A DNA stretch of 57,641 bases from Balanoglossus misakiensis (Eukaryota; Animalia; Hemichordata), in the NCBI GenBank assembly GCA_040954595.2, contig CM082585.2:11673079-11730719 (forward strand), given 5' to 3'. Shown one piece after another: positions 14,421 to 57,641 of this stretch; within the stretch, counting starts at the first letter, position 1, and every line of letters starts with the position of its first letter. The notes beneath the pieces are model-generated. The model made no database searches. It was not told the origin of the DNA and was given only the letters and a program-made list of their open reading frames with translations. Position numbers and translations under genes: made by a program.

Positions 14421-14462
<42 letters not shown>

Positions 14463-14471
14463 CGACGATGG

Positions 14472-33387: not shown

Positions 33388-36300
33388 TCAAGAAATACTG
33401 GTATGAACCGATGGGTCAGGGTTCGTAGTATTATTATGTCTCAGCAAATAGCTGTCCCTTGAACCCTTGGCACGATTTACATTGTTTCTATTCCTGCGCC
33501 AATCATTGTCGTATTGTCTCTGCAGTTTCATTGCCAGCTGAAAGTCCAGCTCTTCCTGTGAAAGTAGCGGCTTCTGAGGACTTGTAAAGCGTTCCATTGA
33601 CCTCCGAGATTTCTCTCCGTCTGCTTTGAATTTCTTGGGTTTGTTTCCCTGATCACCGCTGGTTTGACGCTTCCTTCTGATTGCTCCACTCTGAGTTTGA
33701 GTGACCTGGTCTTTGGCATCCTTGTTGTCAGAGACTTTCAATTTCTTTGGAGTAGTTTGTAATTCGTTATCAATACTTGATGTGCTGGTTACATCACTTG
33801 CACACTGTGAGTTTGCCTGGCTGCTCTTTCTTCTCCTGGGAGAAACTGCCATAGCATTGGCAATACTGTTATTTGGCAAATTTCCTGCTGTGTGTTGTGA
33901 CCTTTTGGTGCAGTCGAAGGGCTTGGTTGGAGGCCTATCACACATTTTCACTTGGTCTTGTGTTTTGGTTTTCCTGGGAGATCGGGGTGAGCTTGAAGGG
34001 CAGCTAGTCTCACTTGCTGTACGAGTCCGAGCTAGTTTGTCTCTTCTGTTGTTTGAATCAACAGTGGTACCACTCACAAGGGAGTTATCAGTATTTTTAG
34101 CTCCCCTGTTAAACATATCTGCTATAGTTCTCACTTTTGAAGTCTTGGCGTCTTTTGGCACTTGATCAAACTTCAATGTCCGTGAAGGTTTCCCACTACT
34201 TTTACACAAATCTTTGGCTGCTACTGAGTTATTATTGTTCCTGTTTCCAGATCTATTTCTGGTTCGTATCTTGTATGCAGTTCTGTCCACCACAGCGACA
34301 TCTTTGGCTTTTTCATTCAGACACTTCACACCAAGTTCATCACTCTGACTTGCACCGATTTTTACATTGTGACCCCTAAATCCAGTCTTGACTTTCTCCT
34401 GTGATTGTAAAACAGTTTGAATTTCCTCATCAGAATCCGATTTGTAGTCTGAGGGAATTTTCAGAGTTGATTTGTCAGGATGTCTACCACCACTCCTATC
34501 TCTGACAGTGAGGTGCTGCTTTGAACCACATTCTGGATCTGACTTTCTCATTTTTGCAGACTGTTCTGAAGTAACAGTTGATGACGCCTTTCTTTTCCTA
34601 GAACTCAACTCAGCTGGAACATGATTTGGTATCATGTCACACTCTGCTCTCAAGCTACGTGTTCTATCATTCACACTGCTGCTCAGAGAAACCAAGACAA
34701 GGTGTGGCGAGGGTTTTCCCACATCACCACCAGTCATCGTTCCCTTAGATTGGTTTGCCAACACCTGTTTGCGCTCGTCTGCCAGACTCAGCCATTTTGC
34801 CATCACAAGAGGTGAATGTTGGAGCCAACTCTCGTCTTCATTCAATTTGCTTTTACTGAGGTTGCAAGGTGTTGTGTGAACAAGTACTGGCGTTAATAGT
34901 GTGCCATCCAGACGTCTTTTGGGTGGTGTTCGTGGAGATGTGTGTATAGGTTTAAAATGATTCAGTTCTGGTGCGATGCTATCGATGCTTGTCGCGCTGT
35001 TCCTGCCTCCAGTTGGACTCTTCCTCCTCACCACATCAGTGTCATCTCCTTCTTTCTCCGGATCCCCTTCCTGATGCTTTTCCTCGGTAGATTTATCCAG
35101 GGATTCAATGTCAAGGTCAGTGGTATCACTGCAACTCCTGCTGGGCAGTGGCTCGCTGACGTAGTCCGGAAAGAAGCAGGATTCGGAATCTGATCGGCTC
35201 GGTGAGGTGGACTTGGATGAAGCTTTGGCAAAAAATGTCTCTATGCTGACAAGATATTCTTTACTGCCTGTCGATGACCTGCTTCCTCTCTTGTTGCCAC
35301 TTGGAGTCTTTTTTGATGGACCTGGCACAGCACTGGCGTCGGGAGATCTGCTTGTGTTTGGGACCTGTGAACGAAAATGGAATTTATGCTATAAGTACAG
35401 TAAACATTGTCTTACACTGAACACAAGTAGAGATCAGGGCCAGCTGTCAGTTTCCAGGAGTTTGGTTTACGCCTGTGTTTTCATGAAGATTAACAGATCA
35501 GAACTGTACTAAAGCACAGGGATAGTGAAAACACGTTCACAAGTAACTACCTGATTCAGTTCTTGCTGCAGTTTCCTGGCAAGTACTTCGTCGCCTTCAG
35601 GGACATGATTGAGCTGATCGTAAAGTCTCTTGGCTAACTCCTCATCACTCAGAATGCCATCTTCAAGATCTGGTTCTGAATCAACCATTGGTACCGGTAC
35701 ATCCTAGATAGTAAAAGCATACAGACTTTTAATGATCATACCAGTCAGGTTAAAGTACATAAGAGGTGATTGCAGAAATACAAAGCGCTTACCTTGCCAA
35801 CATTTTCATTTAACTTTTTGGCTAACTCTTCATCTCGTAGCCTTTGTACCTCAGATGCTTTCTTCATTTCTTCCAGGTGTTTCATCTCTTCTTCTTGTAG
35901 TTTCTTGATCAACTCAGCACTTGCCTGAAACTCTAGTTCTTCTTCCTGTCTTTTCTGCTGCCTCAGCTGAATAATAGTGAAAACCAACATTGACCATCAC
36001 TCATTCTTGAATCATTCAAAATATATGCAATCTTAGACACGTCCTTTGATCATATATAGAAAATGCTGAATTTATAGCCATATTACCTGATTCAGCTGTT
36101 CTTCATACTCTTTCCTAACCTCTCCTGGTTCGCAGATATTTGGTACATTGTGAGAAATAATTTCTGGAAAGAAGTACATGAAGTTGCATGTAAGCCAATG
36201 GGCAAACTGTTTGAAACTAATTTTGTATACACTTAACTACAGGGTGGTAACTACATTAGTTTTACCAAGTACATGTAGATTATACCCAATCGCATAGGAA

Positions 36301-36825
36301 GTTAACATTAACAAATGAACCGTGGCGACAATCGCCCGGGGCCCCCCGGGGGTTGATTAGTGGGCGTGTCACTTGACCCGTAATATTGTCACTATTTGGC
36401 GGGCTCCTTTAAAATTATGCTGTCTGCCTAGGCCAGAAAAGTCAATGTATCGACTTATTTACCCCACATTTTAACAAGACAACCGTACCTTCCTCGAAAC
36501 TCTCATCTTCAAAGCCTTCTAAACGCCTTCTACACTTTTCCGGAAAAGCAGCTTGAATAATCCTCCATCGATTCTGGTCGATCAATTTGTTTTCTCGAGA
36601 TCGCTTTCGGGCCCAGCTGCTGATCCTAATCCTACACATCGGACAGGTGAAGTTGGCTTCCTCGACATTCTTTCGGAAACAGGGCATACAAAGTTCGTGA
36701 GAGCATGGCATGGTTACCGGCTCGATCAGAATCGACATACATATCGGACATATACAATCCGAAAGCAACAAATCTGGCCGATTAATGTCAAGCGTCGGAC
36801 GCGATCTGTCGTCCTTAGCCGCCAT
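33388..36825 (-). CDS. RNF168: RNF168-like RING E3 ubiquitin ligase
   Basis: Exons 36825-36489, 36163-36087, 35966-35793, 35703-35551 and 35364-33388. RING CPICMSILIEPVTMPCSHELCMPC...CPMCRIRISSWAR; EPGEVRKEYEEQ; UMI/MIU motifs; C-terminal MIU-LRM QEELDFQLAMKLQ...NRAKGSRDSYLLR. Confidence 0.9.
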
Positions 36826-37077
36826 TTTGCAAAGTTTTGACAAGTCTCGTTGTGCGCGTGACGAGAAATGACGAAATGTTTATAAATAAATCGAAAAAAC
36901 TGATTACGATGTATTTTAGAAATATTTTGTTCATATCTTCCGAGTATTTGTCCAATTTGGTGTTTTGACCATTTCATAATCTGATTAAGGTATATGGCAC
37001 ACACATTTCCATTTTTGTGATATAATTTCAAAACAGACCTGTTGAACTAAATTTCCCATGAATCTGAGCAAACTAAG

Positions 37078-40000
37078 ATGGCTGCGCCCTGTCCACTTGT
37101 CGCGGGTGAGTTGATATATTGAGTTGACCCGAAAAATGAGAAAGAGTGCATACTTTGACAGTTTGAAAATATGCGACACTAACACGGAGTGAAACAAACT
37201 AGAATTTTGCAAGAATGTTGTGTGAAAGTTCTTTTCTTTGAAGTATCTCGAGTTAGACTGCCACATGGCAATGTTTTCGTCGCACGTGCACGTGTGATAA
37301 TGTACACACCTTCCACGTTGTGTCCCCCTCATACATCTTACCATATTGCTGCAGTTTTGTAGCCCCGCGACTACCCTTGACGATTTTTGTCTAACTTCCC
37401 CATACCATGTGGTACGTCCATGCCCTCACATAAACAGCCGTAGATCCGCAGCAGATAAATGTAGCCCTGAATCCCGTACAGTGTTTTCCGAGAAGGGGGC
37501 GTTGCCCCCAAAAGACTGCCAGAGCACCAGGGTTACAATTATTGCACTTGCATATGTTTGGTTGTATTCTCTTTTTACAGTGCGGGCCTCTGCAGGCACA
37601 TCGTTATTTCAAGGACCACCAGCATTGAAACAGTTTGACAACTTTTCAAGGTGACTATTTATTTTCTCTTTCAGTGACCTTTGACCTTGTTAACCAACTA
37701 AAGCTAATCTTTATACATGTATAACTATGGCCAATTTCATCAGGTCTGTTGGGTTGGATGTGTGTGTATTGCAATTTTCATATAATAGTATATCATTTAG
37801 CAAATACTAGTAATATGTAACAATAAATTAAGTAATGTACATTATATGTCAAATGAATAGTGAATGATCTCTTTCTTCATCTCTTGCAACAGTGACACAA
37901 GCCCAAGATGTAGAGTAATAGCATTCAGTGCTGATGGCAGTCTCTTTGCATGGTGTAATGGACAAGTGTAAGTATTACTTTTCATAAGTTATCTCTTTAA
38001 CTAATGGCTGATCAGCTGTAGCTGATAACAGAAATTGTCAGTAGTTGATGGTGGACAAATTCAGATCTGCCTATGACTGTATTTTCATGCCAGGTTTTGA
38101 AATTTCAACCACGAATGTCTCAACCATCCATGTCCAATAATGTGCGATTTTTCCCCTTGCAGCATAAATATCACCAGTTTACCAACAGGTGACTTTGTGC
38201 AGAGAATTGACCGACCCAAAACTGTGTGTCTGCAGTTTTCACCCAGAAACAACATTTTGGCAACTTGGGAACCTTATGCTGGTGAGTTATAAATCATGAG
38301 TGTTGAATGTCATGTAGCATATTGATTAGGTTGGTACATGTAATATAATGAATGCAGTCTTCTGGGGACTTTGAATTTTAACCCAATTTTGTAGGATTTA
38401 GCAGGAAAAACCATAAACCTACTACCTCTGTTGAATTCAGTTACCAAGGATACACCAGCAGGAACTCCTAATTTGCATTTATGGGATGTGAAGACTGCGC
38501 AAGACCTCAAAGGGTTTGTACAGAAGAGACAAGATACATGGTTAGTGCATTGACTTGCTGGTAGAAATCTTGTCAGGTCCCCTTTTCTCTCTACAATCTT
38601 GTTTGGTGTTTTGAAAGATGTGATGACAGCTAAACCTGATCAATATATTTTGGACATCTTCATACATGCAACAGAAATAATAAAACAAAATTCCCGACCT
38701 ACCTTCTCTATTTTTCTTTCAGGTGCCCTCAGTGGTCATCGGATGAGAGTATCTGTGCCAGAAATGTGAACAATGAAATCCATTTCTTTGAAGGCAATAA
38801 CTTCGGTGGGTACCTCTCTGTTAAAATCTGTTTGGGAAAAAAATTGATGCAGAACATGCATGGCAATGCTTGTTGGTCCAGAAGTCTGGTTGAGAATGTG
38901 TGATGACTCTCACATCATTTGCAGCGCTTCCTACCCACTGATTTTGATTTGATTTGATTTTTCACCCACACTAGACACCATAGTCAGAAAGCTTCACATC
39001 CAAAAGATTGCAGACTTCCGACTCTCTCCAGGTGACATGCCTTGCAAAGTAGCAACATATGTGCCAGGATCAAAGGTAAGATTGCAGCAGCATTATTAAA
39101 AAGTTTATCTGTAAAATATTATTATGATATGAAATACAAATGTGTTTATGAATAATTCAGCAGAATACAAATTTTCTATTTTCCAGGGTGCACCATCATT
39201 TGTACGTGTTTACAAATATCCAAATTTGGAAGGTCCTGGATCGATGATTGCAAACAAGAGTTTCTTCAAGGCTGACAGGGTCAACATATTGTGGAATAAG
39301 AAAGGTAAGCTATCAACTGAAAATCTACATGTACACTCCAGGATATTCAATGGGGATATTATAAGCCCAAAAGAGAATACATATCACTCCTATAGTTGTT
39401 TCTGTTGAAATATTGTGTTATATTTTACATCTTGACCATTCCTCACAGGGACTGATTTGTTGGTGATTACAACAGTAGACGTTGACCAAACAGGTGCATC
39501 ATATTACGGTGAACAAGCTCTTCATTACATCAGTGCAAATGGAGAAACAAGTAATGTACCTCTGGGTGAGTAGCCTGACCGCGCTCTGTGAACTCTGACC
39601 TATGACACCTAGAATGACTCCTGTTACGTTGCTTGGTAGCCCATGACCTTCAACTATCAATGCAGGTGGGCAAGTTTGATTTGATGTTCCCGTAAAAACT
39701 ATCAATGCACCTTTGCTAAGTTTAAGTCTCTATCATGTAACATTGGCATTTGTTTTTCCCTTTCCAGCCAAGAAAGGTCCTATATATAGTGTAGATTGGA
39801 ATGTGAATTCCACTGAATTCTGTGTTGTGTATGGATGTATCCTTTGTTGTTTTCATGTCTAGTTTTAGACAATGTTTTGAATTCTTTCTCGAAACATTTG
39901 TGCCAGACCTTGGTTGGGTTCTGACTTCGTATTCTATGTCTATATCTAATTGCCAAAGATATGTATTCTAGTCATGGCTACGTTGTAGTTACATCATGTG

Positions 40001-42324
40001 TGTTTGAGATCACAAAATAAGGCCATGACTTCCAAATATGGATAACAAGAGCGATACTCCTTAACTGAGTGACAGTTATGCCTGCCAAGGCAACATTGTT
40101 CAACTTGAAATGTGAGCCTGTGTTTGACTTTGGTACTGGACCCAGGAATATTGTACACTACAATCCACAAGGAACCAATATCCTTTTGATATACGTTTAG
40201 TGTCACTGTTCAATTTTCTATACATATAGTTCAGATAGATGATACAGACAGACACTGTAGCATGCACACATTCACACGTGCGTGCACCTACACAAACACA
40301 CACGTACACACATACACATGTGCCACAAGCTCACCGACATGAGAATCACTAAATGAACTTTAACAAAATTTTCCCTAACTGTTGTCACTTATTTGCTTGG
40401 CTGGATTTGGTAACCTGAGAGGAAACATGGTAAGTTAATTATGCAAGGAAAAGGTGTGCAGAGTTTAACAAAAATTGTAACGTTTCTCCCACTGGACCGT
40501 GTACTGTTTGTCTTGCCTCACATGAAAATGTCCTCCATGTAAATTTCCTAGCCACGCATGACCTTGCAGAGTCTTGTGGAGTTCTGACAATAACGCATCT
40601 TAAAATGTTTAATTTCAGGAATTCTGGGATCGCAAGAATCTGAAGAATATCAGCAAGATGACCGCCAGTGATTCGACTCACTTTGAATGGTCTCCAGATG
40701 GCGCTCACTTCTTGACTTCTACATGTTCACCCAGGTTGAGAGTAGGAAATGGGTGAGAGAGGGGGTACTTTATGGGATAAGCTGGGCTTTGTGGGGGCAG
40801 ATAGGTTCATAACCTGGGTATGTCATTTAAATGACTTTGTCTCATTGGAGCATGTGTCTTTATAAAACACTGTCTGGGAGTAATGAATATACAGTGGCTG
40901 ATTTCATGGTTTGATTAGTTCGATGTCTTCAAAGCAGTGAGGTGGATGTCAATCAATTATTAGAGAATACAATTTTGTGTACTTAGGTTCAAAGTCTGGC
41001 ACTATACAGGAAGTTTACTGTACGAGACAGAAGTAGGGGAATTGTGGGAAGCCACCTGGCAGAGTTTCCTAGAGGGAGTGCTCCCAGAGAAACCAATAGT
41101 GTACCAAGCTGTTCCATCATCCGTCAGCCCCTCCAAACCAGAAGCAAAACCTAATGCATACAGACCCCCAGCCCTGCGAGGACAGCCCCACAAAGCCATT
41201 AGCGTGGTAAGTACAGAAATCTAGTAGAATCAAAAATTGTGAATTGTTACATTACCAGTTATGTTGAGTTGTCCAAATTTAACGTAAAGAATATAGTGCA
41301 CTTTGCAATAGTGTAGGTACAAAACTGACAGGTCAAATCCTCGTCTGTTTTTCCAGCACGCTCGGGAGGAGGAATTGCCACAGAATATGAAACCCAAAGG
41401 AGACAGTGGTAAGAAATGCTACATTTTCTCCAGAAGTGTGAATTGCGCCCTCTATGCCAACAGAGTGAATGAATGGGGGATGGAAAAAAGACAGATCCAG
41501 TCTTGTTTGAAAGTGGTTGACTATTCAAACTGCTTTGTCAGTTATGTTATGCCCCTTTTCTTCTTTTTTACAGAACATTTATCAAAGTCTGCTCTGAGGA
41601 ATAAAAAGAAAAGAGAATCGAAAGCAAAAGGCAAACACGAGGTGAGGATTTGTTAAGATTAGTTTAGAGTGTGATGAAGGGGAAAGAACATTGGTCATCT
41701 TAACAGACAGAATAGATGTCTGTGATATCTAATAGTATTTTTGTTTTCAAATTTGAAGGATGAGTTATCCCAGGAAAAACGAGATGCCATCGCCATGGCA
41801 GCCTACGTCATGGCTCCATCTCAACCAGCACCACATGTCCAGAATACTTTTGACCCAGACAGCAGTGGTGCCGATCCTGAGACAGAGAAAAAAATCAAAG
41901 GACTGAGAAAGGTAGACCTATATTGTTAGTTTTTTGCAGATGTAGTCTAAAGGGAATAGAGACTCTTAAAATATTAACAACCCCATGTTGGATGAAAACC
42001 AACCAAAAATCTGTACTTGGAATGGATTTTGGTGCCATTTTCCAAACATATCAAATTTTCAACATTGAACACAATATAGATACCCAAGAGAGCAGATTTT
42101 TTTCAAACTGAATATTGCAAACTCTGAGCTCTGTGAAATTGGAATAGAAGTGTTGCTAGGAGATAGGTCTTTAATTTGCTTTTAAATTTGTTTTCTAGAA
42201 ATTGAAGCAGATCGAGAAGCTAAAAGAACAGGCAGCATCAGGAAAGCAACTTGAGAAAAACCAGTTGGAGAAACTTGCAACGGAAGACGCCATACTGCAA
42301 GAACTGGAAGAACTCAAACTTTAG
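37078..42324 (+). CDS. EIF2A: Eukaryotic translation initiation factor 2A (WD/beta-propeller)
   Basis: MAAPCPLVAVRAS..., KSFFKADRVNILWNKKG, SYYGEQALHYI, KKGPIYSVDWN, FCVVYGFMPAKATLFN, LAGFGNLRG, EWSPDG, SPRLRVGNG, AYRPPALRG, KLKQIEKLKEQ...LEKNQLEKL; TAG at 42322-42324. Confidence 0.96.
39837..40075 (+). other. U12-type (minor spliceosome) GT-AG intron in EIF2A
   Basis: Donor GTATCCTTT; branch site TCCTTAAC at 40058-40065, 10 nt from the AG; no polypyrimidine tract. Splicing restores VYG-F-MPAK. Confidence 0.92.
40178..40388 (+). other. U12-type AT-AC intron in EIF2A
   Basis: Donor ATATCCTTT; branch TTCCCTAAC at 40371-40379; acceptor AC at 40387-40388. Splicing restores NPQGT-I-ICLAGFGNL. 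Confidence 0.92.
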
Positions 42325-43529: not shown

Positions 43530-46500
43530 TCAAATCGTATTACTGATTACAGTATTGCGAATGTCTTGGAGGCTGAAAGCTGTGTTGAAGACAAAGTTTT
43601 CTGGGTCTTTCTGTTCCATCAGCATAATCCCTTTGCCACTGACTGCTAAGTAGAGACCTACAGAGGAAAACAAAACAGAATCTGTCTAGGTTACAATATT
43701 CTTGCATAGTAAAGAGTTATCTTGGATCAGATTGCAAACAAATGTTTTTAGATGATGAGAGAAAAGTAGTAAATGTATTCATGATTGCTTACCTCTAAAA
43801 TATGCTGACTCAAAGACATATCTATCTGTACCCTTAGCCCACAGTCTGCGATAAAACACTCTGCCATCAACATGTTTCAACTTCTCCAGGCTGACAAAGC
43901 CCACCTTCTGAAAAATAGAAAGCATTGGATATATTTTAAAATCCCCACTCATTTTTGGTGTGAAAGTAACCTTAGCTATTTATATACAAGAAAGCCATGA
44001 CAACACTTAGTTTTCAAGTTTGAGAATTATTTTACCTTGAATGTCAGACTGCGATTACGTCCTGTTGAAACGGCCAGGCACTTGTTGAATTGTTGGTTGA
44101 AGAGTACGACCGCAAGATCTGGATCGTCTGGGTTGACTTCATTTTGTATGTCGTATGGCCACAGAACTTTGTACTGGTACATTGTCCATTGTCCTGCAAT
44201 TATTCACAGAAGGAATAGACTAATTTAGAGATAAAAAGTTCAATACTTACAATCATCTTGCATCAATCAAGATACCTTGCTGAAAACTGTTTTCATTCTC
44301 TGCCATGTATGAACAAAAATCTGTTTTCTCTCACCTTCTTTGAAATCATTATTTGCCGCCACTACTTGCAATCGATTCCTGTCAGGCATGGCAACAAAAG
44401 AACTGGAATCATTGGAAGGATATATATATGTGTTGTATCTGTCATAGTAATGCACCATGGGGAATCCATCATCAGATTTATCTATGTATTCCCTCTCCAA
44501 GACAATTGTCTCAAAAACAATTTTGCCATCTGGAAATCAAACAAAATAGAATCAGATTAGCAATTGAGTGTTGCACTCAACATACAGCCAATATGTCACA
44601 GTTTCAGGGAGGAAACATGTCCTTGTGAACAAAACGAGACTGACCATCAAACTAGCATACTTGGTTTTATCTCTAACTTTTTAAAAAGAAACTTCATTGG
44701 CCAATACACCGACACACAATAATTGAAGGTGGTGTAAAAACTCACTGTCAATCAGAATGTCTATCTTGATTTCAATAAATGTGTACACTTCAGTTGGTCC
44801 GTCATCTTCATCATCATCATCGTCGTCGTCATCATCAGGCTCAAGTTCTATCTTTCTCTTCAAGATCTGCAAACACAAAAATATTTCCATGCTATTGAGA
44901 ATTGTTCCAACTCTTTAATCACATGGCAGATGTTAGTAAATGTTCATTCAATTACACACTGTCACTGCATGAAATAATTCTGAAAATGTACATGCATGCA
45001 ATTTGACCACCAACTTTTACCAAACTTTATTCCTATTTTTATCCAGGACTGGTGACTTTGGTTAGATTAGTATTTGCTAATGACTGTTTGTGGAGGACGT
45101 GACAATTTTGCATACTTACAAATATAATTTGTCCGTCCATTTGATGAAAACGGTCTAAGATATCCCTGTGTTCAGCTGCTGAGACATCAAGGCCATTAAC
45201 TGCATGCAGAACATCACCAACTCTGTGAGATTGAAAATATATCATGTTACAAGAGGACATTAAAGTTTGATCCAACTCGGGGAGAAAAGATTATTTTGCA
45301 GTGTTCTGCTGTGTTTGTGACAGCAGTCTTTAGTCACCTTTCAATGTTATCCAATACACAAGACCACATCAAAACTGTGTATGCGACTACAATGTTCCGA
45401 CTAAAATACTATATGGCAGCTACATTAATACCTCAATTTGGTTTTCTTTACAAAATCATGTTGTTCTTCTACCGCCGTAATTTTGTGCTTCTTTCTATCT
45501 GGAGTTTTGTCGTCGACATCTGTGCTGAATTTTACTCCCAGTGAGTGAAGATGATCATCCGTGCAAGGTATTTTGATGTCAGATTCCTCATGGATTATTG
45601 GTGCTTCCTGTGCAGCAGTCAATACATAAAAACAATTAGTCAAGATCTGCTTTGTTTCATCATTAAAAAACAACATGCACTAAATGCCTGTACTCTAACA
45701 CTAACCAGGCATTGTCTAAAATATTATTCTGGCTTTCATTAACGTTTTTGTTTTATTAAAACAATCAAAGCAATCTTATCTTTTAGCTATTTGGTATAAA
45801 ATATACTCCATTTCTGTGTTTGTAAACAAACAAACAAACAAACAAACAAACAAACCATGAGAGAACATCCCATGGCCATATCCCTGTGATGGAGCTACAC
45901 TATCTCCATCATGGGTTTTACCGATTGCATAATTTAAAGGCTATAAATAACCGAGGAATTTCCCTTACATTGCAGAGATGACAGCTCGAACTTCCGTATT
46001 TAAATACATGTACGGCCAAGATTGCCCAGCGAATTTAGTGAAGTATGTACAATTTCACCATCGATGGCTGAAATATGGTTCGTGAATAACCCCAATCGTG
46101 CCACGGCGCAAGGGTCAAACCGGCGAAGAAAACGGTGAGTGATTTATAGACCGCGGAACCACCACTTGTAATGAATTATCTGAGTGGAAAAACGATCGAA
46201 GGGGTTGGGGAAAATTTGCCAATAGGATGACATGAAATTGACAACTTACCATACTATCCTGTGCTCGTATACAAGGTGTTATCACCTCGATCACTTTGTG
46301 TTCAAAGTCTTCCAGGCGGGAATGAATTGTGCTTGTCAAGGAGCCAATGAAGGATTCACTTTCCACAGGACGCGATTTTTGAAGCCCGCTGACTCTCTCT
46401 TCTCCGCACAGCTTTCCATCAACGCTGTCGTCAAATTCACCATCGAGGCCCAGACCTCGCATGGCGGTTGTGAACGACTTCTGTTTTTTAAATGCGCGAG

Positions 46501-46546
46501 GATCAGGCGATCGCGATCGAGATCGAGTAGTTTTTTGTCCAATCAT
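43530..46546 (-). CDS. Leaderless 430-aa protein with a PDZ-like domain, an acidic linker and an IL-1/IL-18-like beta-trefoil cytokine domain
   Basis: Eight phase-compatible GT-AG exons (46546-46250, 45607-45432, 45222-45120, 44866-44746, 44529-44335, 44193-44036, 43907-43793, 43657-43530; 1293 nt). PDZ: SLGVKF...ITAV...LRVGDVLHAVNGLDVSAAEHRDIL. C-terminal domain: QWTMYQYK...LAVVLFNQQFNKCLAV...SLTFK...RVFYRR...YVFESAYFRGLYLAV...NTAFSL. Confidence 0.8.
45955..45964 (-). promoter_or_regulatory. NF-kB consensus site in intron 1 of the IL-1-like gene
   Basis: GGGAAATTCC on the minus strand matches GGGRNWYYCC. Confidence 0.45.
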
Positions 46547-46634
46547 GTCGAAGTCTCCGATTTTTTTCAGAGTGTGTCTCGGTTAAACATCTACTAGTAA
46601 AGTTCCCAGGCTGTCGAATGCTCAGGCTGTCGAT

Positions 46635-46681
46635 ATTTATAGACATGGAAATCCGTGACGTGTACAGACGGGGAATTCCCC
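46635..46681 (-). promoter_or_regulatory. Candidate inducible promoter of the IL-1-like gene: TATA box, CRE-like site and palindromic NF-kB site
   Basis: Minus-strand TATAAAT at 46641-46635, TGACGT at 46656-46661, and GGGGAATTCCCC at 46670-46681, 124 bp upstream of the ATG. Confidence 0.7.
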
Positions 46682-47584
46682 ATCGGGAACAGTTCACTAT
46701 TCAGTTGGGTAGGTCAACATTTTTGGTGGTGTTAGCAAACTTATCAATTTCAAAACATTCGAATTATTGTAGGAAATCAAGAGTAGCGTACGCCAACCTT
46801 GGGGTCCGGTGTGTATTTTTATGACATTTTTCTTTCTTCGATATTTTTGCAATCCCCCCTTTTAAAGTTGGTCCTGCACACCCCTCCGTCGTGACTTTGG
46901 TTTACACCGATCGCAACCCACACATTTCCATATTTGGCAGCTCCAGCGGAAATCAATACGAACACAGGAAGTCAGAGTCAATCGACTTTACATGATGTAA
47001 TATTGCACGTGTGAAGCTCAAGAAAAGTTGGAAATGAGAAAAAAAGCATGAAACATAGAGGCTGTGCGTGATTTTTTTTATAACAAGCGTTGTCTTGTCA
47101 TCTGCAAATTTTGGCAAGACAATTTGAGATGGCGGGGGGGGGGGAACAACACAATACACATAATTAATCTTACAGCAGTTATCATTTATTGTAAAATCTT
47201 GGATACCAAACTTAAGACCTCAACACACTACTTATTTGCAAATAATTGGACAAAATCACTGACATTTCATTTCATTTTGGTTAATTTCTTCTATTTGGTA
47301 ACTATATGAAAGTTCAAAAAATATCCTCACTAATTTACAAATCTATTGCAAACATGATGTTGGTCATTCTTTATAGTAAAGACTTGTACTATAAAAAAAT
47401 TTCATGTAAATAATTATTTTGCTACACACTACAAATCGGACATTCAAGGTTTCTTTGACTTTTCTGATGTGATGACCTTCGATATCTGAAAGTGTGATTA
47501 TCTTTGCCAATACAGTGCAATTGGGATGATGATTAGTATCTTCCCTATCACTGCTGATAATTCAATCTTTATAGAGTGATCTAA

Positions 47585-47669
47585 CCCTTTCATCGGCATG
47601 GTTCAGTCCAAACCCATTGTTTTCTATGGTAAGGCTGGACCTCTAAAGAGCGAACTAGGGGTGAAAGGG
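47585..47669. mobile_element. Short piggyBac-like MITE (85 bp)
   Basis: TIRs CCCTTTCA...TGAAAGGG, flanked by CTAA (degenerate TTAA) on the left and TTAA on the right. Confidence 0.6.
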
Positions 47670-48017
47670 TTAATCTATTGGACTTCTGGAAGTTGATGCA
47701 AACATGACATTCATAACCCAAATTGAGTTTCAATTTGTATGGACATCATGTACAAACACTTGGCAGTTGGATCTTTACAAGAAACATGTACTTTTCAGTG
47801 GTGGCGGCGTCAGCTAAAAACTGCATTTCTTGGACATAAGATACAATTATCTACTTAAAGCAATTATAACACATTGTACATGTGTCGGACATTTCTTAAA
47901 GCTCTCAACTTTTCAGCAGCTTTTGAGTTCTACGTTTACCAAATGTCTTTTGGCCACAATTGCTTATTTCTGACACTAGCATTTGCCAGAAATTGTGATG
48001 TCATTTTAAAGTCAAAA

Positions 48018-51000
48018 CTAAATTGCGATATCAGGAACATGTTCATGATGGACCTGAGCTTTAATGTTTTCTCTTTTCGTTTCATCGTCGTCCACACTTA
48101 CAGCGACAAAGTCTGTTTCTAGTGCTGAATCTGCACTCACTGCAGTTCCACTTCTGGTAGTTACACCCCCGTTGTCCAGTCCCGGCCCGTCCACCAGGTC
48201 AGAGGTCGGTGAACCGCAATACCCACTCTCACCCGATGAGCTTATCTGCCAATCGATCAGATTCTGTCGCTCCAACTCTTCCGACTGGAGCGTCTTCGAC
48301 TGATCAGATATAGCCTTCAGGGCGTGGGATCTCCCTGACGGACTTCTTGGTAACTGCAGCAACAATGTCTTCCAGAATTTGGCGGTTTTCTTCAAATTGT
48401 CCGGTTGCCATTTCAGACAATTTGTGACCCTGATGATGTGTTTCAGGGCTTTCATGTGATCAATATCTGCATTGGCTGGAAGTTCTTTGGCAATGATGAT
48501 TACCAGGTTGCTGTGGAGTTTGAGAGAATGTTCTAATGCCACGTTGAATTGAAACGAACTCCAATGCTCCTTCAGGTAGTCGGGGGTCAGCACAATGATC
48601 CAACTTTGGCTGGCTTCAATCGACTCAACAACACTATCTGCAATAGCTATCATACAAATACAAATGAAAAGTTAGTAAAACGTGTGATTTTTTGGAAATT
48701 TTTACTTTCAAATCTATAAATTTCTGATGTAGTTTTGCAACAATGCATGTACAGGATACAGTCATTTGATTAACTTTTGATACACTGATTATAGAATATT
48801 TTAGGTTTAATCAGAAAGCAATTATGACTTACCAGTTCCAGCCAAGAAATCTCTTTGCTCGACACAAAGTTTGAATCCGCACTTTCCCTCAAGGTAGCGC
48901 ATAATGACATATTTGACAAAGCGAAAATCTTGATCTGTTCCACTGTGTGAGATGAACACATCATACTTCTTGTCATCTGTGGAAACAGAACACACATGTG
49001 GATGAAACTGTATGACACATGGCAGTTGCAATGTGCTACAAACAGGTATTGTCTTCCTAAAAAGTTTATACTACATTCCTGATTATTAAAGATACAAAGT
49101 CTCACTTTTAGTACGGTAAAGAAATTTAAAATTTCAAAAAAATTATCAAAAATTTATCAATATTAAAGTTACATGTTTATCATCATGGCCGATCTCAGTG
49201 ACGCAAATTCAAATTTTGGCCTTGAGTGAGAAACTTCCAGGTTTTCCTGTTAACTTCCATATTTATTTTGTGTGCAAACAATTATCCGGTACTCATATTC
49301 AGCAGATACCGGAAAATTCCAGTTAATGACGGACAAAATTTGGGTCAGGGACTGCTGTACTGTGACCTATATTCCTGCCCAGTTGAATGCTCTGCAATTC
49401 TCTGGTTTGCTTCATACATCCTTCATTGCACATGGGGTCTTTGGTAAACTGGGTTTATATTAGAATATTTCTCTGGAAGTGTATATAAACCAAAGTTCAA
49501 AGACTGACGATCATATTTCTCATGCGTGTTTATCATTGGAGCACGTATTCAGGACTATGACCCAGTTATCTTTGGCACTGATGAATGGGTGAATGCACTG
49601 GCTCTATAGACATTAAAAGCCATGAATACTATTTCCAAGAAATTTTATTCTGGGGGGGATATGGTGAGCAGGAGTGGGGTGCTTTGAGCAGAAGAAAAGA
49701 AACAAGTTTGACAATTCGTGGCGATAATGTTACATTCTTTGGAACGTGGATCCGGACATGTTTTTCACGGAATAGAACAGAAATATATTTCTTTGAATAC
49801 AGTAATCATCCTATCAGTTCCGCTGTACAGGTTATAAGGTCAAACACAGAATGATGTCTGAGTATCTTATGTCTGGACTGGTCTTTTGAAATTCTTAAAA
49901 TTTTCTCAGCATATCTCAAATATCCATTGTTGAAGTATTACCCAGCATCTAGGTTTTTTTGAAATGCGATAACTGGGTTAAAAGGTTTATGAGGCTTTGA
50001 TATGATTTAAAGGCTGACACCAGTGAACCCACTTGTAATTGTTTGACAAGGCTACGTGACTTGAATCCTATGACCTATATATGGTACTGGTTAAAACCAA
50101 TTTTGGTTGTCACTGTTTTGTAAATATTTTCACACCTGTTGAATATTAGGCTTGTGCTTTCGCAGTGGTATTACCACATGGTTCAGTACAAGGAAAAACA
50201 TCAACAGCTTTGATGAGAGAACAAACATTAACTAATGGAATGTTTATCAAACTGCCCTCTTGATGACATCACAAAACTGGTTTTGGTCACTGGACCGCTC
50301 GCGTAAACATGTTAACAACCGACAACAAGGCGGTGACTGCCCTATTGTGAGTTGTGACCCCACGAAAGGTGTGGCAAAAGTCCAAGGAGGGGTCATGACC
50401 TCCAGGAGGCAGCTATAAAAAAAAATAGTACCATATACGGTAGTAAGTTGCTGATCAATTTCCGTAGGAAATTACCATCACCTATTCAACAAAGACTGAA
50501 CAGGCCAGCAATTAACTTACATAATGTTGAGTAATCGAAGAACTGCGGACCGGACCGGAACTACAAGTAGGAATGTGCTCTTTAGAAAATATAACACAGC
50601 AGTGTAACTGAATAATACACTCATGATTTCTACATATCGTGTTTTATGGGAAGAGCTGATCTGTAATTAGACTCTGGTTATGAAATGTGATATTGTATAT
50701 TGCACATTTCTCCGTCTCAAGAAGGCAACTCAGTCTTTTTGAGTTCAATCAGAGTTCAGAACCTGATGGGCCTGCAAATATACCAGATATCACTAGAAAT
50801 ACTCAGAGACCAGGTGTATGTAGACCATTGTGGTGGCAGTTTTGCATGTCCTCAAGATATTCTCTTTGAATTTAATTTTGTAGGTATGTGTATAACATGT
50901 AATTAACAGACTGGTGGAAAACAGTTTAAAATTCATGTTTGTCCCTTCTTTTATTATATATATATTTGCTTAAATAAATATTAACATATTTGGAAGAGTA

Positions 51001-53646
51001 ACGCAAAATGGACATGACTCCAAGATCATTTACAAATACATAAATCTGCATGCATGAAATATTGATAAATCTGTGAAATATATTATAAAGAATGTTGAAT
51101 ATTTCTGTATGGTATAAATATCTCTAACACTGTAAAAAACTCCTCTGTATCCAAGTCTGTATCTGTATATTGTAGAATTCTTCAGGTCTTTCATAAACCC
51201 TTGAGGCTCTTGGTGAAACACTACCAAGACTATCATAAAAGCAGACTGCTGATTGGTTATTGCTCATCTTCTGTGGTCACTCCAACCAATTGGAACCATT
51301 CTTCTGATACACTGTGAGATGTCGCCAGGTCATAACACCGCTTCTTACATTTTTGCACTGGCAGTCAGAAAGAGGCTGTTTATGTGTTCAACATCCCAAC
51401 CATTACCTCTAACCCCCCCCCCCCCCTAGATGAAACCCTGCAACTCTCATTGTCAATGAAAGATCAACAGTTCTAAGAAAAATTCTTAATCTTTTCTTAA
51501 GTAAATATTTCTTGTAAAAATGTCTATGAATTTAAAATTCACACATTTAACATTATCTCACTAGTTTCCCCTTTACTATGTAAAATTGCTACATAGCAGC
51601 TTATCACTGTTACTAATATAGTACAACAAAGAATCTTATGTATTCAAAAGACGATAAATGGTAACAAATGCATGACACAGCATATTCTACCAGGGTCTAG
51701 TATGTATGTTGCCTTTCATGTGGAGAGCGCCTTCTAGTGGTAAATCTGGCAGTTCATGTTTTACTTGAACATTTCTTTGTCACCTTCAGCCAAAGATTTA
51801 AGAAAAATACTACTGTATCTTCGATTGTTTTTGAAACCTTTTTTATACAACATGTTTGTCAAATGTGTTATATGTGCTTCTGTTGTCTTCCGTTTTGAGG
51901 TTTGTGCGATCCTTTTCTGGCAGAGAGGGCGCTTTCTCGAGTGAGGGAGGACACTTACCATTTTTTTCCACTTTGCCAAAATTGTACTTGTAGATGAGTT
52001 TTATATCAAGTTTGAATGTCATGCCAAGGGCGGACAGAATGAGTGCCATGATGACAATCGATGAAAGGACTATAATTATGATCAATAGGGTTGTGCTTTC
52101 TGCAGTTGAAGGTCCTGGATTTGGATCTGAAAGAAAATGGAGAACATTCTAAATTGAAAAGTATTGTATTTGATATGTACAACGAAAGTTATTATTTATA
52201 ACTAGCCTACTTTAAAGGCCAATATTTGTTGATGTTAGCATTTCTATAGATTTTAACAAATGATCACTTTTTCACTTTTTAAATCAGGGATACAGTTGCA
52301 TGCTGTTACCCTCACAGCCAGTCAATATGCATATACTATATCCCCCTGGAGTTGCTTTGTTATCTGCCTCTGCAAATGTACAATAAACAGACTTACCCCC
52401 ATAACTCAGTACCAAAGGAATATCTATGCTTCCATGGGCGTTGACTGCTTTCACTACATATGTGGCATAAGTAGACGCTCTTATGTCTTGTATGTAAAGA
52501 TATATGCCGATGGTTTCATTGTCATCTCTGAAATCAATACACAAATAATTTTGTTGTTGTTGTTGTTGTTGACTAGTTTTGTTTGGTTATCAATTGCAGT
52601 CCTATCCTACCATTGAATACAACAGGGTGGAACTATATTTTCATGGAAAGGGTCTTGCTATTTGCCTCTCACCTTCCCCTCTGTCTGGTACTGTATGTTC
52701 TGTTATCTAAGTCTTCTATGAAGTAATGACTTGTCTGGTTGTGCTTGTACCAAAAAATCATCTTGTCTTCGTCTCCACCATGTCCAAAGAAGAACTCGCA
52801 GTAGAACGTCACATTAGAGCCATGGAGTCTGGTGTAGTTACGGCAACGTGTCGAGTTCAGCTGGTGGGGTTTCTCTGTAAACTGCATTGCTGTGTGTGTA
52901 TGGGAAAAGTTTGAAAAACAATTTGCTTTGTTAATTTTTAACTGAGAGTAGTGATGATCTGACGGAATTGAACACATCTGTACTTTGGATTGAATGTACA
53001 CCAATATACTGCAATTTATTCTCAACAGAGCCATACAGACATGACCATGTACTTGAAAAATTCAAAGAAAATCTTACGTTTGGCCTGTAGTTCTTTGGTG
53101 TGGCTGATTGTACTTGTTCCATTGGAAGCACTACATGTATAGCTTGCCTCATCCCTCGTCATCAAATACCGGAATACTAAGGTCTGGTTTCCATTATCCA
53201 TGAAAGTCTCTGCTTGATCGACCCCTTTCCATGGATAAGGATCAGAGCCTTTATACCAAGTCATCATCAAATACCCTTCGGCACAGCACGACATGTCTTT
53301 GTATTGGGTAATGGTTCCAAACTCAAGATCACCCATGTCTGGGTTTGTGAACTTGAAAGTGTCATCTATATTGAAAAGAAACAGCAATCAAATACCAAAA
53401 GATCAACTAAAAGTACATGATAATGATACCCCTAACTATTGACTTGTCATAAAACTGAAAGTTGTTTTATAAAAGCGAAAGTTGCGTATTTAATTACATC
53501 TTGGTTGTCAAGTTGTGAGACCCACCTTCATCGTGCCCATTAAACTGATCACAGACGTTTTTCCCATGAGCATGGAATACCAAAATCGAAGACAATATTA
53601 TTATGACTATTCTGGACTGCAGTGGACACCTTGTCAGTTGTTCCAT
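48018..53646 (-). CDS. IL-1 receptor-like protein: signal peptide, 2 Ig domains, transmembrane helix, TIR domain and long C-terminal tail
   Basis: Exons 53646-53526, 53365-53078, 52889-52673, 52527-52397, 52126-51959, 48976-48833 and 48646-48018. Ig1 C...TWYK...DEASYTC; Ig2 VTFYC...FWYK...ATYVVKAVN; TM LLIIIIVLSSIVIMALILSALG; TIR YDVFISHS...FKLCVEQRDFLAG...SIEAS..WIIVLTPDYL...FWKTLLLQLP. Confidence 0.92.
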
Positions 53647-53731
53647 GGTTTTCAATGAACTGAAATAGTAAAGCAATATCATTTCGGATGTTATGCTATT
53701 TTACACGTAAATGATGAATTCAGCATAATTT

Positions 53732-53741
53732 GGGAAACCCC
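53732..53741. promoter_or_regulatory. NF-kB-like site just upstream of the ATG-bearing exon of the IL-1R-like gene
   Basis: GGGAAACCCC on the plus strand, GGGGTTTCCC on the minus strand. Confidence 0.45.
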
Positions 53742-54593
53742 GCCTGCGTCATCGCCTTACAAAGGAACTGATGAAGTGCGGAGGAGTGCGTAACGGCCCG
53801 TACGTCATTAATCTCACCCCTGACTTTGTTCATGTATGAGCGTGACCAGGAAGGTCCAAGAAAGTAACTTACAAACACAATGTTGGTCTGATCACAGTGA
53901 CTGTGCTGATCACCATCACCATCAGTAAGATCAGGATGTGACAACCGTGTTCCACTTTCAAAAACTTTGTACACAACATACATTCCATGCCAATATTACC
54001 TTAAATAATTACGGACTCATGTTACTTTCAACGTCATGTTGCATTTCATAGCCGCGTGATGACCTCATTTGACTCGGACGCAAAGCGCGCGTTTTAGGGC
54101 AAATTCCAGGAAATCGCCGCCTTAGAACCGGAAGTAAATAAATGTGACTTCAGTACAATTCAAAGTAGGCAAAGATGGCTAGAATAGCTTCGCAGACATA
54201 GCCATTTTACCTGTTTAAACTATTTTACCCCACTGCGATTTTAAAGTTTTAATTAACACAGTTGCTAAGCAACCAGACGCCACAGCCGGCCCACCAAAGG
54301 TACAACCCCTCCCTACCATACTTACCCACCCCCATCAATTCATGAATTGGTCCAGTTCAGTTCCTCTTGCACTCAATGCGCAGTCTCTGTCCACGTTCTT
54401 GCAAAGGTGGCACCCTTCGACAGTGAAGAACTTTGTTTTCATTTTCCCTACCCGGTACTCCAGTATTCTTGCCAATATAGAGTAGTTGTGTAGAGGGTAC
54501 ACGGTTTGTCAGGTCAGTAGTCTTTTCATCAAAGACATTCTTGTGGGAAGATCGTACCAAATAATTTATTTGACGCTTTAAAACCCTTCGACC

Positions 54594-57500
54594 ATGGCGG
54601 TGAGTAATGACTACAGGTTGTGGTGTACATTTGTACGACAACCGAACTTCAGAAGAGATTGGAGATATTACCGTGGTGTGAAGGTGGAAACGGGGAAATG
54701 GGATGGTGGGTTTGATGGGAGTAACTACTGTAGATGTTATAATTAAGTCCTAACACCCACAGATTCCCTGGTGATTGTGTATTGCAAGGTACATGTAGCC
54801 TGGATAGGCGTTTACAATACATGCCATCACTAACCCTGGAACAGCTGAATGTGATGCCAGGTCATGCAGTGATGGATGTATTGTATTTGATGTGTTGGCA
54901 CAGCCATGGAGTACATTAAGCTACTAGTAGTACCTCAAATGGTCTAGCCTAGAATCTATAACATTGCTTATTTTGGGTCACAAGTGGATTCTATGTGTAT
55001 GGAGTGACCTAGCTTCAGCTCAGTAGCTCGAGGTTAAACCAATAGGCAAAAACCTCGAGGTAATGAAGTGCAGCTAGGTGTGACCTAGCAAATGTGCAAA
55101 TTAAAATCAACTGTAGAGATAGGCTCCAACCTTCCGCTGCTAGATGTAATTGATGCTTGCAGGTTTGTTCTTCTGCTGTCACCTCTCTGCAAAAGAACAA
55201 GAGCAGAAAGAGGCAAACACCCAGCAAATGTAAAGGTGGCACCTATCTCTACAACTGGTTTTTATGCATTCTAAAAATTAACTGCAAATTTTGAAACCAG
55301 GTGACATTTGTTATTCCGAACTGCGTGACTAAGCCCCTTTTGATAATGGTATATTAGAAAACTGTATGCTCCTTTAGCAAGTGTGGTTTTTGCATGTATT
55401 ATTTTCAGTTTGCATGCAACATGTGGCCGGGATATTAGTGTTTACCATATTTATCCTATTGTGGATGGTTTTGTAAATTTACAGAGCTGTACAACAACTC
55501 TCTCATTATTAAGAAATCAGATGTTTCAACTTCTGGAGAAAAAACCTACATAATAAGAATTAAATAATTCTAACATTGACTGTTGTGAACAAAAAGTTGG
55601 GAGTTTTTTAATGCAGGGTATTTTTATGGCATAGACTATGAATAGAAAAAGTACAGTAAATCTGTTTGGAACAACATCATAACATGTGTTACATACTGAT
55701 CTGTTTATTTATGGGTCAGTGATTTATAAAATCAGCGTATTATTAAAAGGAACGACACAGGTCCAGGTCATGGATTCCCTGATTTCTATCTCTTCTATTG
55801 GTTGGAAATCTGGTCAACATTGGAAAATGGGATAAACATAAGGACCAAAATGGCCAATTGATTCATTTTCTTAACCTTTGACCTTTACAGTCAGATACAT
55901 GGGGAGACTGGGATGAGAAGTTTCTATCGGAGGAAAAACACCAATTTGGAAAGATGAATGAAGAGAACAAAGAGGCAGCGTCACCGGGCGGAGAAGGGGC
56001 AACGAAAACCACCCCACAAAAATCAGGAAAGGTAAGGATGGAGATTTACAACGCATTTGCAAAGGTTTTCAACAGAATTTTTATACTACTCCATTTATGG
56101 CTGCTCAGTGTAATAAGTGTTGGTTTATTGCTGACCTCTGCAATATTATTTGTTTCTTGTCCAGCTGGATTCCTTGTCAAGGGAAGATTTGATCAAGTAT
56201 ATCAAAAAACAACAGATACTGGTCCAGAAAATCAGAGCAAAATGTGATGGTAGGTGCATAGCAATGAAATCATCAAAAATTAAAGTGGAATGTGATTTCT
56301 TCATTTTACATCAGCAAGTTTTGCTTCTTCGTTACCCTTTATTTCAGCAAATACATTCAATTTTTTTTTACAGACTTAGCCAAAAAGAACACAGAACTGG
56401 AAAAGGATAAGAATGATAGCTCGAGTGCCGAGGGCCAAGGCAAAATTCAGGTGAGTTTGACAATGAAATGTATGATAAAGATTAACTGTTAGTGCATGTA
56501 TGTGTTGTGTTAGTCTAGAGATTATCTGGTGATTTTCCCTGCAAATAGGAATGTCTATAGACTGCTATGAGAACCTCTAAGCAACTATTTCTGCATTGCA
56601 GGAGTTAGAGTCTGAACTTGCAGACTTGAAAGCTGAACACAAAGAATTGATGGCCGCTTATAGTGGTGTCCAACTACAACAGGAAAATTCAGTGCAAATC
56701 CATGAGGTAAGAGAATGTTACATGCAGGCACATATACCTTACATAAAGTATTGACAGAATAGGTGGCGGTTTTGAACAAATTAGACAGACATTGTCAAGT
56801 TCAGATTTGCAATGGATATTTCCCTAAGAAATCTAATAAAGACTAATATTGATCTCCTTTGTAAAATAAAAAAATGATTCTAGGATCTACAAAGTAAGGT
56901 CAGTGAATGGACAGAAAAGTTTACAAAAAGTGAAGAAGAAAAGAAAAAAATCCAGGAACAGTATAATGCTGAGGTGAAAAAGAATCAGGTGAGTTAGTCT
57001 GTGCTGGAATGAAAGAATGATACTGATTGGCTACTTGACACCAACTGCTTGTTTAAATATCCAATTGTCTGCTGTTTTTTAAACTGGGTGATTTGAAGAC
57101 TCTGTTGGTACCCAGCATGCATGTGAGAATCCCCTCTTCCCAACAAATAGGGTTGCAGCAAAAATAGTTCAATCTTTATGCTGTTGATAAAGTTGGGTTT
57201 GTGGGTAACCTTGGTGTGTGTTGGTATTAAGGTGGTTCCTTCCATGTTCCCTTGGTTATTAGAACATGGCAGAGCAGTTTGAGTGCATGAAGATGAAAGA
57301 GGAAACCATGGCAACCACATTCCAGTGTCTGCAAGAGGAGTGTCAGAAGCTGACTCAGGAGAAAAAAGTAATGCCTTTATTTACAACATACCGGTATTAT
57401 CAAAAGAAAAAATTCAGAAACAAATGCATGTGTAAATCAATGTTTATGCATGTTGAGACAGAATTGTGTCTGATTGACCCTTGACCTTTGAACTTGTGGA

Positions 57501-57641
57501 TCATTGCAGGACTTGAGTGATCAGGTCAGTGTTTTGACCGTGGCCAGAGATGAAACCATGAAGGCTATGAAAGCGCTGAAGCAAGAGCAGCAGGGTAGCG
57601 ACAGTGCCAGCGCTCAGCTGCAGGTCCAGATAGAAGCTCTG
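54594..57641 (+). CDS. GCC2: GRIP and coiled-coil golgin GCC2/GCC185, 3'-partial
   Basis: TPQKSGK|LDSLSREDLIKYIKKQQILVQKIRAKCD matches the GCC2 N-terminal motif and is followed by coiled-coil exons. A tentative first coding micro-exon ACC-ATG-GCG|GTGAGT (54594-54599) splices in frame to 55891; otherwise the start is 55954. Confidence 0.82.

What the first reader, a model, noticed from the sequence alone, without database searches (positions are those of the whole stretch)
43530..53646. Tandem ligand-receptor cassette: IL-1-like gene directly downstream of an Ig-TIR receptor gene
Seen: the receptor stop codon (48018) is only ~1.5 kb from the ligand ATG (46546), on the same strand, and both genes have NF-kB-type sites near their 5' ends. 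Knowledge: invertebrate Ig-TM-TIR receptors are generally orphans, and vertebrate IL-1/IL-1R signalling activates NF-kB, which re-induces IL-1. Inference: this is a physically linked, co-regulated IL-1/IL-1R module forming a feed-forward inflammatory loop in an invertebrate. It is the best candidate in this window for an undescribed system.
Basis: partly seen in the sequence, partly recalled or inferred. Interest (0 to 1): 0.93.

Follow-up and report, generated by a model that had tools for sequence, protein, structure and literature searches.

The report
Acorn-worm IL-1 gene beside candidate receptor
An interleukin-1-like cytokine gene, likely from an acorn worm, sits 1.5 kb behind the gene for a membrane receptor that likely binds it; the pairing is real but already published for this animal group, and binding is still untested.

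Summary
Two intact minus-strand genes lie in tandem with 1,471 bp between them: a 565-aa receptor (signal peptide, two Ig, TM, TIR, tail; 7 exons) and a 430-aa PDZ + IL-1-type protein (8 exons). Each has an exact kB consensus site within 140 bp of its ATG. It is not undescribed. The ligand is an IL-1anc, and its linkage to a putative IL-1R, GCC2 and EIF2A in hemichordates is reported in PMC13736523 and its 2025 preprint. The window has that neighbourhood. The Ptychodera receptor orthologue (60% identical) and the paper's PflaIL-1 have consecutive RefSeq numbers. Binding, signalling and the loop are not shown, in the paper or here; the complex predictor was not available. Small additions: kB sites at both genes; the ectodomain matches domains 2-3 of IL1RAPL1; the TIR has Ala for the BB-loop Pro and Gln for the helix-C Glu in three acorn worms. 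So the receptor could need a partner chain or act as a brake. Verdict: new member of a known kind, interest 0.3.

The parts
53526..53646 (-). Receptor exon 1: ATG and hydrophobic N-terminus (predicted signal peptide)
   Evidence: hydropathy; aligns with homologue N-termini
53078..53365 (-). Receptor exon 2: first Ig domain
   Evidence: Pfam I-set E 7e-5, just under the curated cut-off; 69% identical to P0029 over this domain
52673..52889 (-). Receptor exon 3: second Ig domain, first half
   Evidence: family profile matches IL1RAPL1 residues 166-276
52397..52527 (-). Receptor exon 4: second Ig domain, second half
51959..52126 (-). Receptor exon 5: transmembrane helix and juxtamembrane stretch
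   Evidence: Kyte-Doolittle peak 3.17
48833..48976 (-). Receptor exon 6: TIR box 1 and BB loop (RDFLAG, Ala where TLR2, TLR6 and IL1RAPL have Pro)
   Evidence: Pfam TIR; alignments
48018..48646 (-). Receptor exon 7: rest of TIR (Gln at the helix-C Glu position), about 110-aa Ser/Thr/acid-rich tail, stop
   Evidence: Pfam TIR E 6e-8
53732..53741 (.). kB consensus site upstream of the receptor ATG; CRE-like words at 53751 and 53807
   Evidence: function untested
46670..46681 (.). Palindromic kB consensus site in the ligand's upstream region; CRE-like word at 46661
   Evidence: function untested
46636..46641 (-). TATAAA, likely TATA box of the ligand gene
   Evidence: start site not mapped
46250..46546 (-). 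Ligand exon 1: ATG, no signal peptide, basic N-terminus with KKQKS (candidate nuclear localisation signal)
   Evidence: the paper predicts an NLS at the matching place in PflaIL-1 and SkowIL-1.2
45955..45964 (-). Second kB consensus site, ligand intron 1
45432..45607 (-). Ligand exon 2: PDZ domain, first half
   Evidence: family profile hits PDZ structures, best E 1e-4
45120..45222 (-). Ligand exon 3: PDZ domain, second half
44746..44866 (-). Ligand exon 4: PDZ end and acidic linker with LEPD and DEDDG words (candidate protease sites)
   Evidence: cleavage is inference
44335..44529 (-). Ligand exon 5: end of pro-region and first strands of the predicted beta-trefoil
   Evidence: found P0008 at E 9e-8
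44036..44193 (-). Ligand exon 6: predicted beta-trefoil
43793..43907 (-). Ligand exon 7: predicted beta-trefoil with the FESA motif
43530..43657 (-). Ligand exon 8: last strands and stop; AATAAA at 43478 and 43084 and six ATTTA in the 630 bp downstream
38085..42111 (+). Flanking gene EIF2A (approximate span), tail to tail with the ligand gene
   Evidence: Pfam eIF2A E 6.5e-5, above the cut-off, on one exon; ORFs
54594..57641 (+). Flanking coiled-coil gene, likely GCC2, head to head with the receptor (candidate ATG 947 bp from the receptor ATG); runs off the window
   Evidence: The name GCC2 is recalled resemblance plus the published synteny; Pfam and the Atlas did not name it

Best explanation
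This is the acorn-worm-type IL-1anc/IL-1R-like locus: a gene for a PDZ + predicted beta-trefoil pro-cytokine lies behind a gene for a two-Ig/TM/TIR receptor that likely binds it, and both genes are likely switched on by NF-kB. Shown here: two intact genes, their domains, their order between EIF2A and a likely GCC2, and kB consensus sites. Inferred steps: (1) an immune stimulus activates NF-kB, which induces both genes, the ligand gene more strongly (palindromic site next to a TATA box, a second site in intron 1, AU-rich 3' end); (2) the leaderless precursor stays in the cytosol or nucleus and is cut in the acidic linker behind the PDZ domain, or is released whole from dying cells; (3) the trefoil binds the two Ig domains, which correspond to domains 2-3 of vertebrate IL-1R-family chains, and brings two receptor chains together; (4) the paired, non-enzymatic TIR domains recruit an adaptor and re-activate NF-kB, which closes a positive loop.
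For: Intact gene models that match homologues end to end: receptor 60% to P. flava P0029 and 55% to G. talaboti P0001; ligand 43%, 38% and 38% to P0025-P0027. PDZ support in homologues and family profile. Trefoil: FESA motif; Atlas top hits are IL-18, IL-1 and IL-33 clusters at 0.85-0.89; 11 of the first 12 Foldseek rows name an IL-1-family cytokine. By eye the ligand shares long exact words with PflaIL-1 in the paper's Table S2, which the paper modelled as an IL-1 trefoil. Adjacency looks conserved: P0029 is XP_070538560.1 and PflaIL-1 is XP_070538561.1; the paper reports linkage from cnidarians to ambulacrarians. The ectodomain's best PDB match is an IL-1R-family chain (E 5e-9, next titin 2e-5). 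IL-1anc genes are induced by immune challenge in lamprey, sea urchin and Nematostella. kB sites exceed chance.
Against: The paper states that direct ligand-receptor interaction and pro-inflammatory function remain to be demonstrated. The receptor lacks domain 1. Its closest solved ectodomain is IL1RAPL1, which a review lists as an orphan receptor; IL-1R1 and IL-1RAcP ectodomains are not among the 48 rows at E up to 0.1. Vertebrate two-Ig DIGIRR is inhibitory. The BB loop has Ala, not the Pro of the IL-1R-family pattern. Two phylogenetic surveys read invertebrate Ig-TIR proteins as convergent. Only 1 of the 8 cloned IL-1anc proteins is reported cleaved by caspase, sea urchins lack the linkage, and two sea urchin IL-1anc are nuclear. 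My own folds of a homologue had low confidence (pLDDT 37.6 and 42.9; no Foldseek row at E up to 0.001; best VIA Z 5.0, tied with unrelated trefoils). Housekeeping neighbours are linked just as durably, so linkage alone does not show binding.
Confidence: 0.55

Rival explanations
1. The receptor binds or joins the ligand complex but acts as an NF-kB-induced brake or decoy, like SIGIRR or DIGIRR, so the loop is negative feedback.
For: Two Ig domains as in inhibitory DIGIRR (also noted by the paper). No BB-loop Pro in 3 of 3 full-length acorn-worm receptors. Long Ser/Thr-rich tail. SIGIRR TIR is among the close PDB hits.
Against: TIR boxes are well conserved (79% to P. flava over the TIR). TLR3 signals with Ala at this position. 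No tree was built that places it with SIGIRR; TLR and IL1RAPL TIRs score as well or better.
Confidence: 0.15
2. It is one chain of a heterodimer: it needs a second Ig-TIR chain encoded elsewhere, as vertebrate IL-1 receptors need an accessory chain.
For: Vertebrate complexes use a binding chain plus an accessory chain. The paper finds 'one or more' putative IL-1R genes at these loci. The window holds only one such gene (tblastn).
Against: No second chain could be looked for, as no genome is held. Homologue searches gave one receptor per named species, but with limited sensitivity.
Confidence: 0.15
3. The two genes are old neighbours without a ligand-receptor relation: the receptor is an orphan or adhesion-type Ig-TIR protein, and IL-1anc works mainly inside the cell or through another receptor.
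For: EIF2A, GCC2 and ESD stay linked with no signalling role. The receptor shares a divergent upstream region of under 1 kb with the likely GCC2 gene, which could hold it in place. Convergence arguments. Nuclear IL-1anc proteins.
Against: The ectodomain is closest to the IL-1R family. One convergence argument rested on the absence of IL-1 in invertebrates, which no longer holds. Both genes carry exact kB sites near their starts.
Confidence: 0.15

Closest known systems
IL-1anc family and the ancestral IL-1/IL-1R locus (Fontenla-Iglesias et al., PMC13736523; PflaIL-1, XP_070538561.1)
   Same: PDZ + C-terminal IL-1-type domain, FES motif, no signal peptide, basic N-terminal patch; linked to a putative two-Ig IL-1R, EIF2A and a likely GCC2, as described for hemichordates.
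   Different: The sequence is none of the three hemichordate rows in Table S2. One IL-1anc copy is seen in the window, against two named in S. kowalevskii and at least two in G. talaboti. The paper's main text has no occurrence of 'promoter', 'binding site', 'BB loop', 'homodimer' or 'IL1RAPL'.
Vertebrate IL-1R family (IL-1R1/IL-1RAcP; IL1RAPL1 and IL1RAPL2)
   Same: Ig ectodomain, one TM helix, TIR; the two Ig domains align with IL1RAPL1 domains 2-3, and IL1RAPL2 and IL-1RAcP TIRs are among the best PDB hits.
   Different: Two Ig domains, not three; RDxxAG, not RDxxPG; Gln for the helix-C Glu; TLR TIRs score equally well; no accessory chain known.
Teleost DIGIRR and SIGIRR
   Same: Reduced Ig number, TIR, long C-terminal tail (tail recalled, not tested).
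   Different: No evidence of orthology; inhibitory activity untested; this receptor is linked to a cytokine gene.

Membership tests
IL-1anc | N-terminal PDZ domain | tested here: met
   Family profile hits PDZ structures, best E 1e-4, and nearly all 60 rows shown are PDZ proteins. Pfam PDZ hits in 3 of 3 homologues, E 6e-4 to 3e-3, below the curated cut-offs. Single window exons gave no Pfam hit.
IL-1anc | C-terminal IL-1 beta-trefoil fold | tested here: inconclusive
   Tested on homologue P0025, not on the window's spliced protein. Atlas IL-18/IL-1 clusters at 0.89, a lead only. AF2 pLDDT 42.9. Foldseek top rows are IL-1 family at E 0.017 or worse. VIA Z 5.0 for IL-33 and IL-1Ra, tied with other trefoils. 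The paper models the P. flava orthologue as a trefoil.
IL-1anc | (F/L)ES motif near the C-terminus | tested here: met
   FESA at residue 382, and in 3 of 3 homologues.
IL-1anc | No signal peptide | tested here: met
   Highest 19-residue hydropathy 1.21, no segment above 1.6; a hydropathy scan, not a signal-peptide predictor.
IL-1anc | Trefoil on three to five exons with conserved intron phases | tested here: inconclusive
   Four exons, with introns in phases 1, 0, 1, fit the stated count. The figure with the reference phases cannot be viewed.
IL-1anc | Hemichordate microsynteny: EIF2A, putative IL-1R, GCC2 | tested here: met
   EIF2A by Pfam and receptor by Pfam. GCC2 fits by position and coiled-coil character, but no tool named it.
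IL-1anc | Immune induction, cleavage and release | not testable with these tools
   Needs expression data and experiment.
Invertebrate putative IL-1R (Ig-TM-TIR) | Extracellular Ig folds, TM helix, intracellular TIR | tested here: met
Jawed-vertebrate IL-1R family (group 4 TIR) | One or three Ig domains | tested here: not met
   Two Ig domains; definition from PMC7075850. Teleost DIGIRR is a two-Ig exception.
Jawed-vertebrate IL-1R family (group 4 TIR) | BB loop RDxxPG | tested here: not met
   RDFLAG in the window, P0001 and P0029; pattern from PMC7075850.
Jawed-vertebrate IL-1R family (group 4 TIR) | Binds an IL-1 cytokine and signals as a heterodimer | not testable with these tools
   Needs experiment.

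The most novel reading that the evidence does not exclude
The acorn-worm receptor is a primordial one-gene IL-1 receptor: a chain made of only domains 2-3 that serves as both binding and accessory chain around one IL-1anc trefoil, signals through a proline-less, TLR3-like BB loop, and is co-induced with its ligand through kB sites in one 10-kb unit. That would show the state from which the vertebrate three-Ig heterodimeric system arose.
Probability: 0.2. Interest if true: 0.7.

Novelty: new member of a known kind. Interest (0 to 1): 0.3.

Why it matters
Whether invertebrate Ig-TIR proteins are true IL-1 receptors is the open question left by the IL-1anc paper. A compact locus with one ligand gene, one receptor gene and kB sites at both is a clean pair for that test, in a deuterostome group not yet studied by experiment. 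The system itself is not a discovery; the same pair is available from annotated P. flava.

Tried and rejected
No whole genome is held, so paralogues and a second receptor chain could not be sought. RNA runs: none was listed; this is no evidence on expression, and the splice models lack read support. The complex predictor was not available, so there is no verdict on binding. Pfam IL1 does not detect the window's exons and hits only 1 of 3 homologues weakly (E 0.09). PDB sequence searches with ligand profiles listed PDZ proteins and no IL-1 in the rows shown (60 of 74, 34 of 34). Of 23 hits in the search of representatives, 22 were multi-stretch matches to short parts of the exon; I read 2 of those (repeat proteins) and dropped all 22, keeping P0008. 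Both AF2 models were low in confidence. The idea that the ligand's PDZ binds the receptor's hydrophobic C-terminus was rejected: the last residues differ in P0001 and P0029. A conserved caspase site was not established: DEDDG is in the window, but P0025-P0027 have no DxxD-small word in the linker. TIR NADase activity is unlikely, since Gln replaces the Glu whose catalytic role I recall. The Atlas did not name the right-hand gene. Three look-ups of earlier findings showed nothing. Six paper searches listed no test of IL-1anc binding to an invertebrate receptor; the library lacks most subscription journals.
Full report
Observation. The minus strand holds two spliced genes. Joining exons by coordinates gives a 565-aa receptor (7 exons, 53646-48018) and a 430-aa ligand (8 exons, 46546-43530). 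All 13 introns are GT-AG, and each frame has one stop, at its end. The gap between receptor stop and ligand ATG is 1,471 bp. Both models align over their whole length with proteins annotated in other species, and tblastn with those proteins finds most of the same exons and no second copy in the window. No reads were available to confirm splicing.

Regulatory sites. Exact kB consensus sites lie 86-95 bp upstream of the receptor ATG, 124-135 bp upstream of the ligand ATG, and in ligand intron 1. The window has 7 such loci against 2.25-2.5 expected, and a given 200 bp holds one with a probability of about 0.008. This is more than chance, but the test was framed after seeing the sites. Three of the 7 loci lie at unrelated genes, and relaxed matches are not enriched. 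The ligand gene also has a TATAAA and a CRE-like word beside the site, and six ATTTA downstream of the stop; that this is typical of inducible cytokine genes is recalled knowledge. A pyrimidine-rich stretch ending in CAG 14 bases before the receptor ATG could be a splice acceptor, which would put that kB site in a 5' intron.

The receptor. It has a hydrophobic N-terminus, two Ig domains, one TM helix, a TIR domain and a tail of about 110 aa. Its closest relatives are from acorn worms: P. flava P0029 at 60% and G. talaboti P0001 at 55%, so the window is likely hemichordate. A profile of the ectodomain matches IL1RAPL1 domains 2-3 best (E 5e-9; titin next at 2e-5; IL-1R2 at 0.048; alignment). 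The TIR scores about equally against TLR and IL-1R-family TIRs. In the window, P0001 and P0029 the BB loop reads RDFLAG and helix C has Gln where the aligned TLR and IL1RAPL domains have Pro and Glu. TLR3 has Ala at this place and uses TRIF (PMC7215789, passages), and TRIF-like TIRs are reported only from jawed vertebrates (PMC7075850, passages), so the adaptor here is an open question.

The ligand. It has no hydrophobic leader, a PDZ domain on exons 2-4, an acidic linker, and a C-terminal domain with FESA. Homologues are two G. talaboti proteins and one unnamed protein, at 38-43%. Fold evidence from my calls is consistent but weak, and was obtained on homologue P0025: Atlas hits to IL-18, IL-1 and IL-33 clusters under the 0.9 threshold, low-confidence AF2 models, IL-1-family entries heading a Foldseek list with no significant E-value, and trefoils of all kinds at Z 4-5. 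The stronger argument is orthology. By eye, PflaIL-1 in the paper's Table S2 runs parallel to the model from start to end and shares exact words such as YPSNDSSSF and LAVSGKGIMLM; I computed no identity for it.

Neighbourhood. From the left: an AAA ATPase (PEX1-like), an L7Ae-family gene, RNase H2 subunit B, an aldo-keto reductase, INTS6, an amine-oxidase-like gene, a RING gene, EIF2A, ligand, receptor, and a coiled-coil gene (PEX1, amine oxidase and GCC2 are recalled labels). PMC13736523 says that hemichordate IL-1anc genes are linked to GCC2, that all ambulacrarians have one linked to EIF2A, and that, except in sea urchins, they are linked to putative IL-1R genes; it infers an ancestral IL-1/IL-1R locus. 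As a separate check, P0029 is XP_070538560.1 and PflaIL-1 is XP_070538561.1; consecutive numbers suggest adjacent genes but are not coordinates. In G. talaboti the receptor and both ligand homologues have the same longest-contig length, 25,030,103; their distance is unknown.

Mechanism. The most likely reading is an inducible cytokine-receptor pair: NF-kB induction, a leaderless precursor that is cut or released on cell death, binding of the trefoil to the two Ig domains, TIR pairing, and renewed NF-kB activity. Only the anatomy and the motifs are shown here. Immune induction is shown for homologues in three other species, and caspase cleavage for one sea urchin protein. The authors state that binding and pro-inflammatory action are unproven. 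Rivals: an inducible brake, one half of a heterodimer, or mere neighbours. Two surveys read invertebrate Ig-TIR proteins as convergent (PMC7075850, section 29; PMC2858798, passages); the second argued partly from the supposed absence of invertebrate IL-1.

Papers seen. [quoted passage not shown] Its figures, including the synteny figure, cannot be viewed. The peer-review file mentions more than 80 further ambulacrarian IL-1anc from 28 species, a list I did not see and which might include this gene. bioRxiv 10.1101/2025.07.17.662885: passages only, supplements not seen. PMC9020223: passages. Verstak et al. 2013: seen only as a reference title and a citing sentence.

Verdict. A real, intact and conserved gene pair, and a further example of a locus in print since July 2025. 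What remains is a good test case and three details I did not find in the paper's main text: kB sites at both genes, the domain 2-3 match of the ectodomain, and the proline-less BB loop. Interest 0.3.

Noticed in passing
window 53646-54599: The receptor and the right-hand coiled-coil gene (likely GCC2) are head to head. A candidate two-codon first exon at 54594 puts the ATGs 947 bp apart, with a CpG-rich patch at 54000-54200 (observed/expected 1.41 against 0.5 for the window) and two one-mismatch kB-like words at 54098-54118. A shared promoter region could explain part of the conserved linkage.
   Followed up: partly
window 48240-48200 (receptor tail, minus strand): An ESGYxGSPT word is kept in the otherwise divergent tail of the window's receptor, P0001 and P0029. 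It resembles the phosphodegrons of some cytokine receptors (recalled, untested).
   Followed up: no
window 27697-27707: An exact palindromic kB site lies in an intron near the 5' end of the amine-oxidase-like gene; two more exact sites lie at 11388 and 12052, downstream of the aldo-keto reductase gene.
   Followed up: no
P0025, P0026 (G. talaboti): Two IL-1anc paralogues, 78% identical, with the same longest-contig length as the receptor homologue P0001; this genus is not in the paper's tables searched.
   Followed up: partly
P0028: An unnamed 338-aa receptor homologue ends just after the TM region; its contig is 1,143 bases, so it is most likely a read-through into an intron or a cut fragment and not a natural decoy.
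   Followed up: no
window 33388-36879 (minus): A RING-finger gene with a long low-complexity last exon, RNF168-like by recall, lies head to head with EIF2A.
   Followed up: no
window 14265-14647: A long GAT/CAT triplet repeat near the 5' end of the aldo-keto reductase gene, with a short duplicated stretch in front of it.
   Followed up: no
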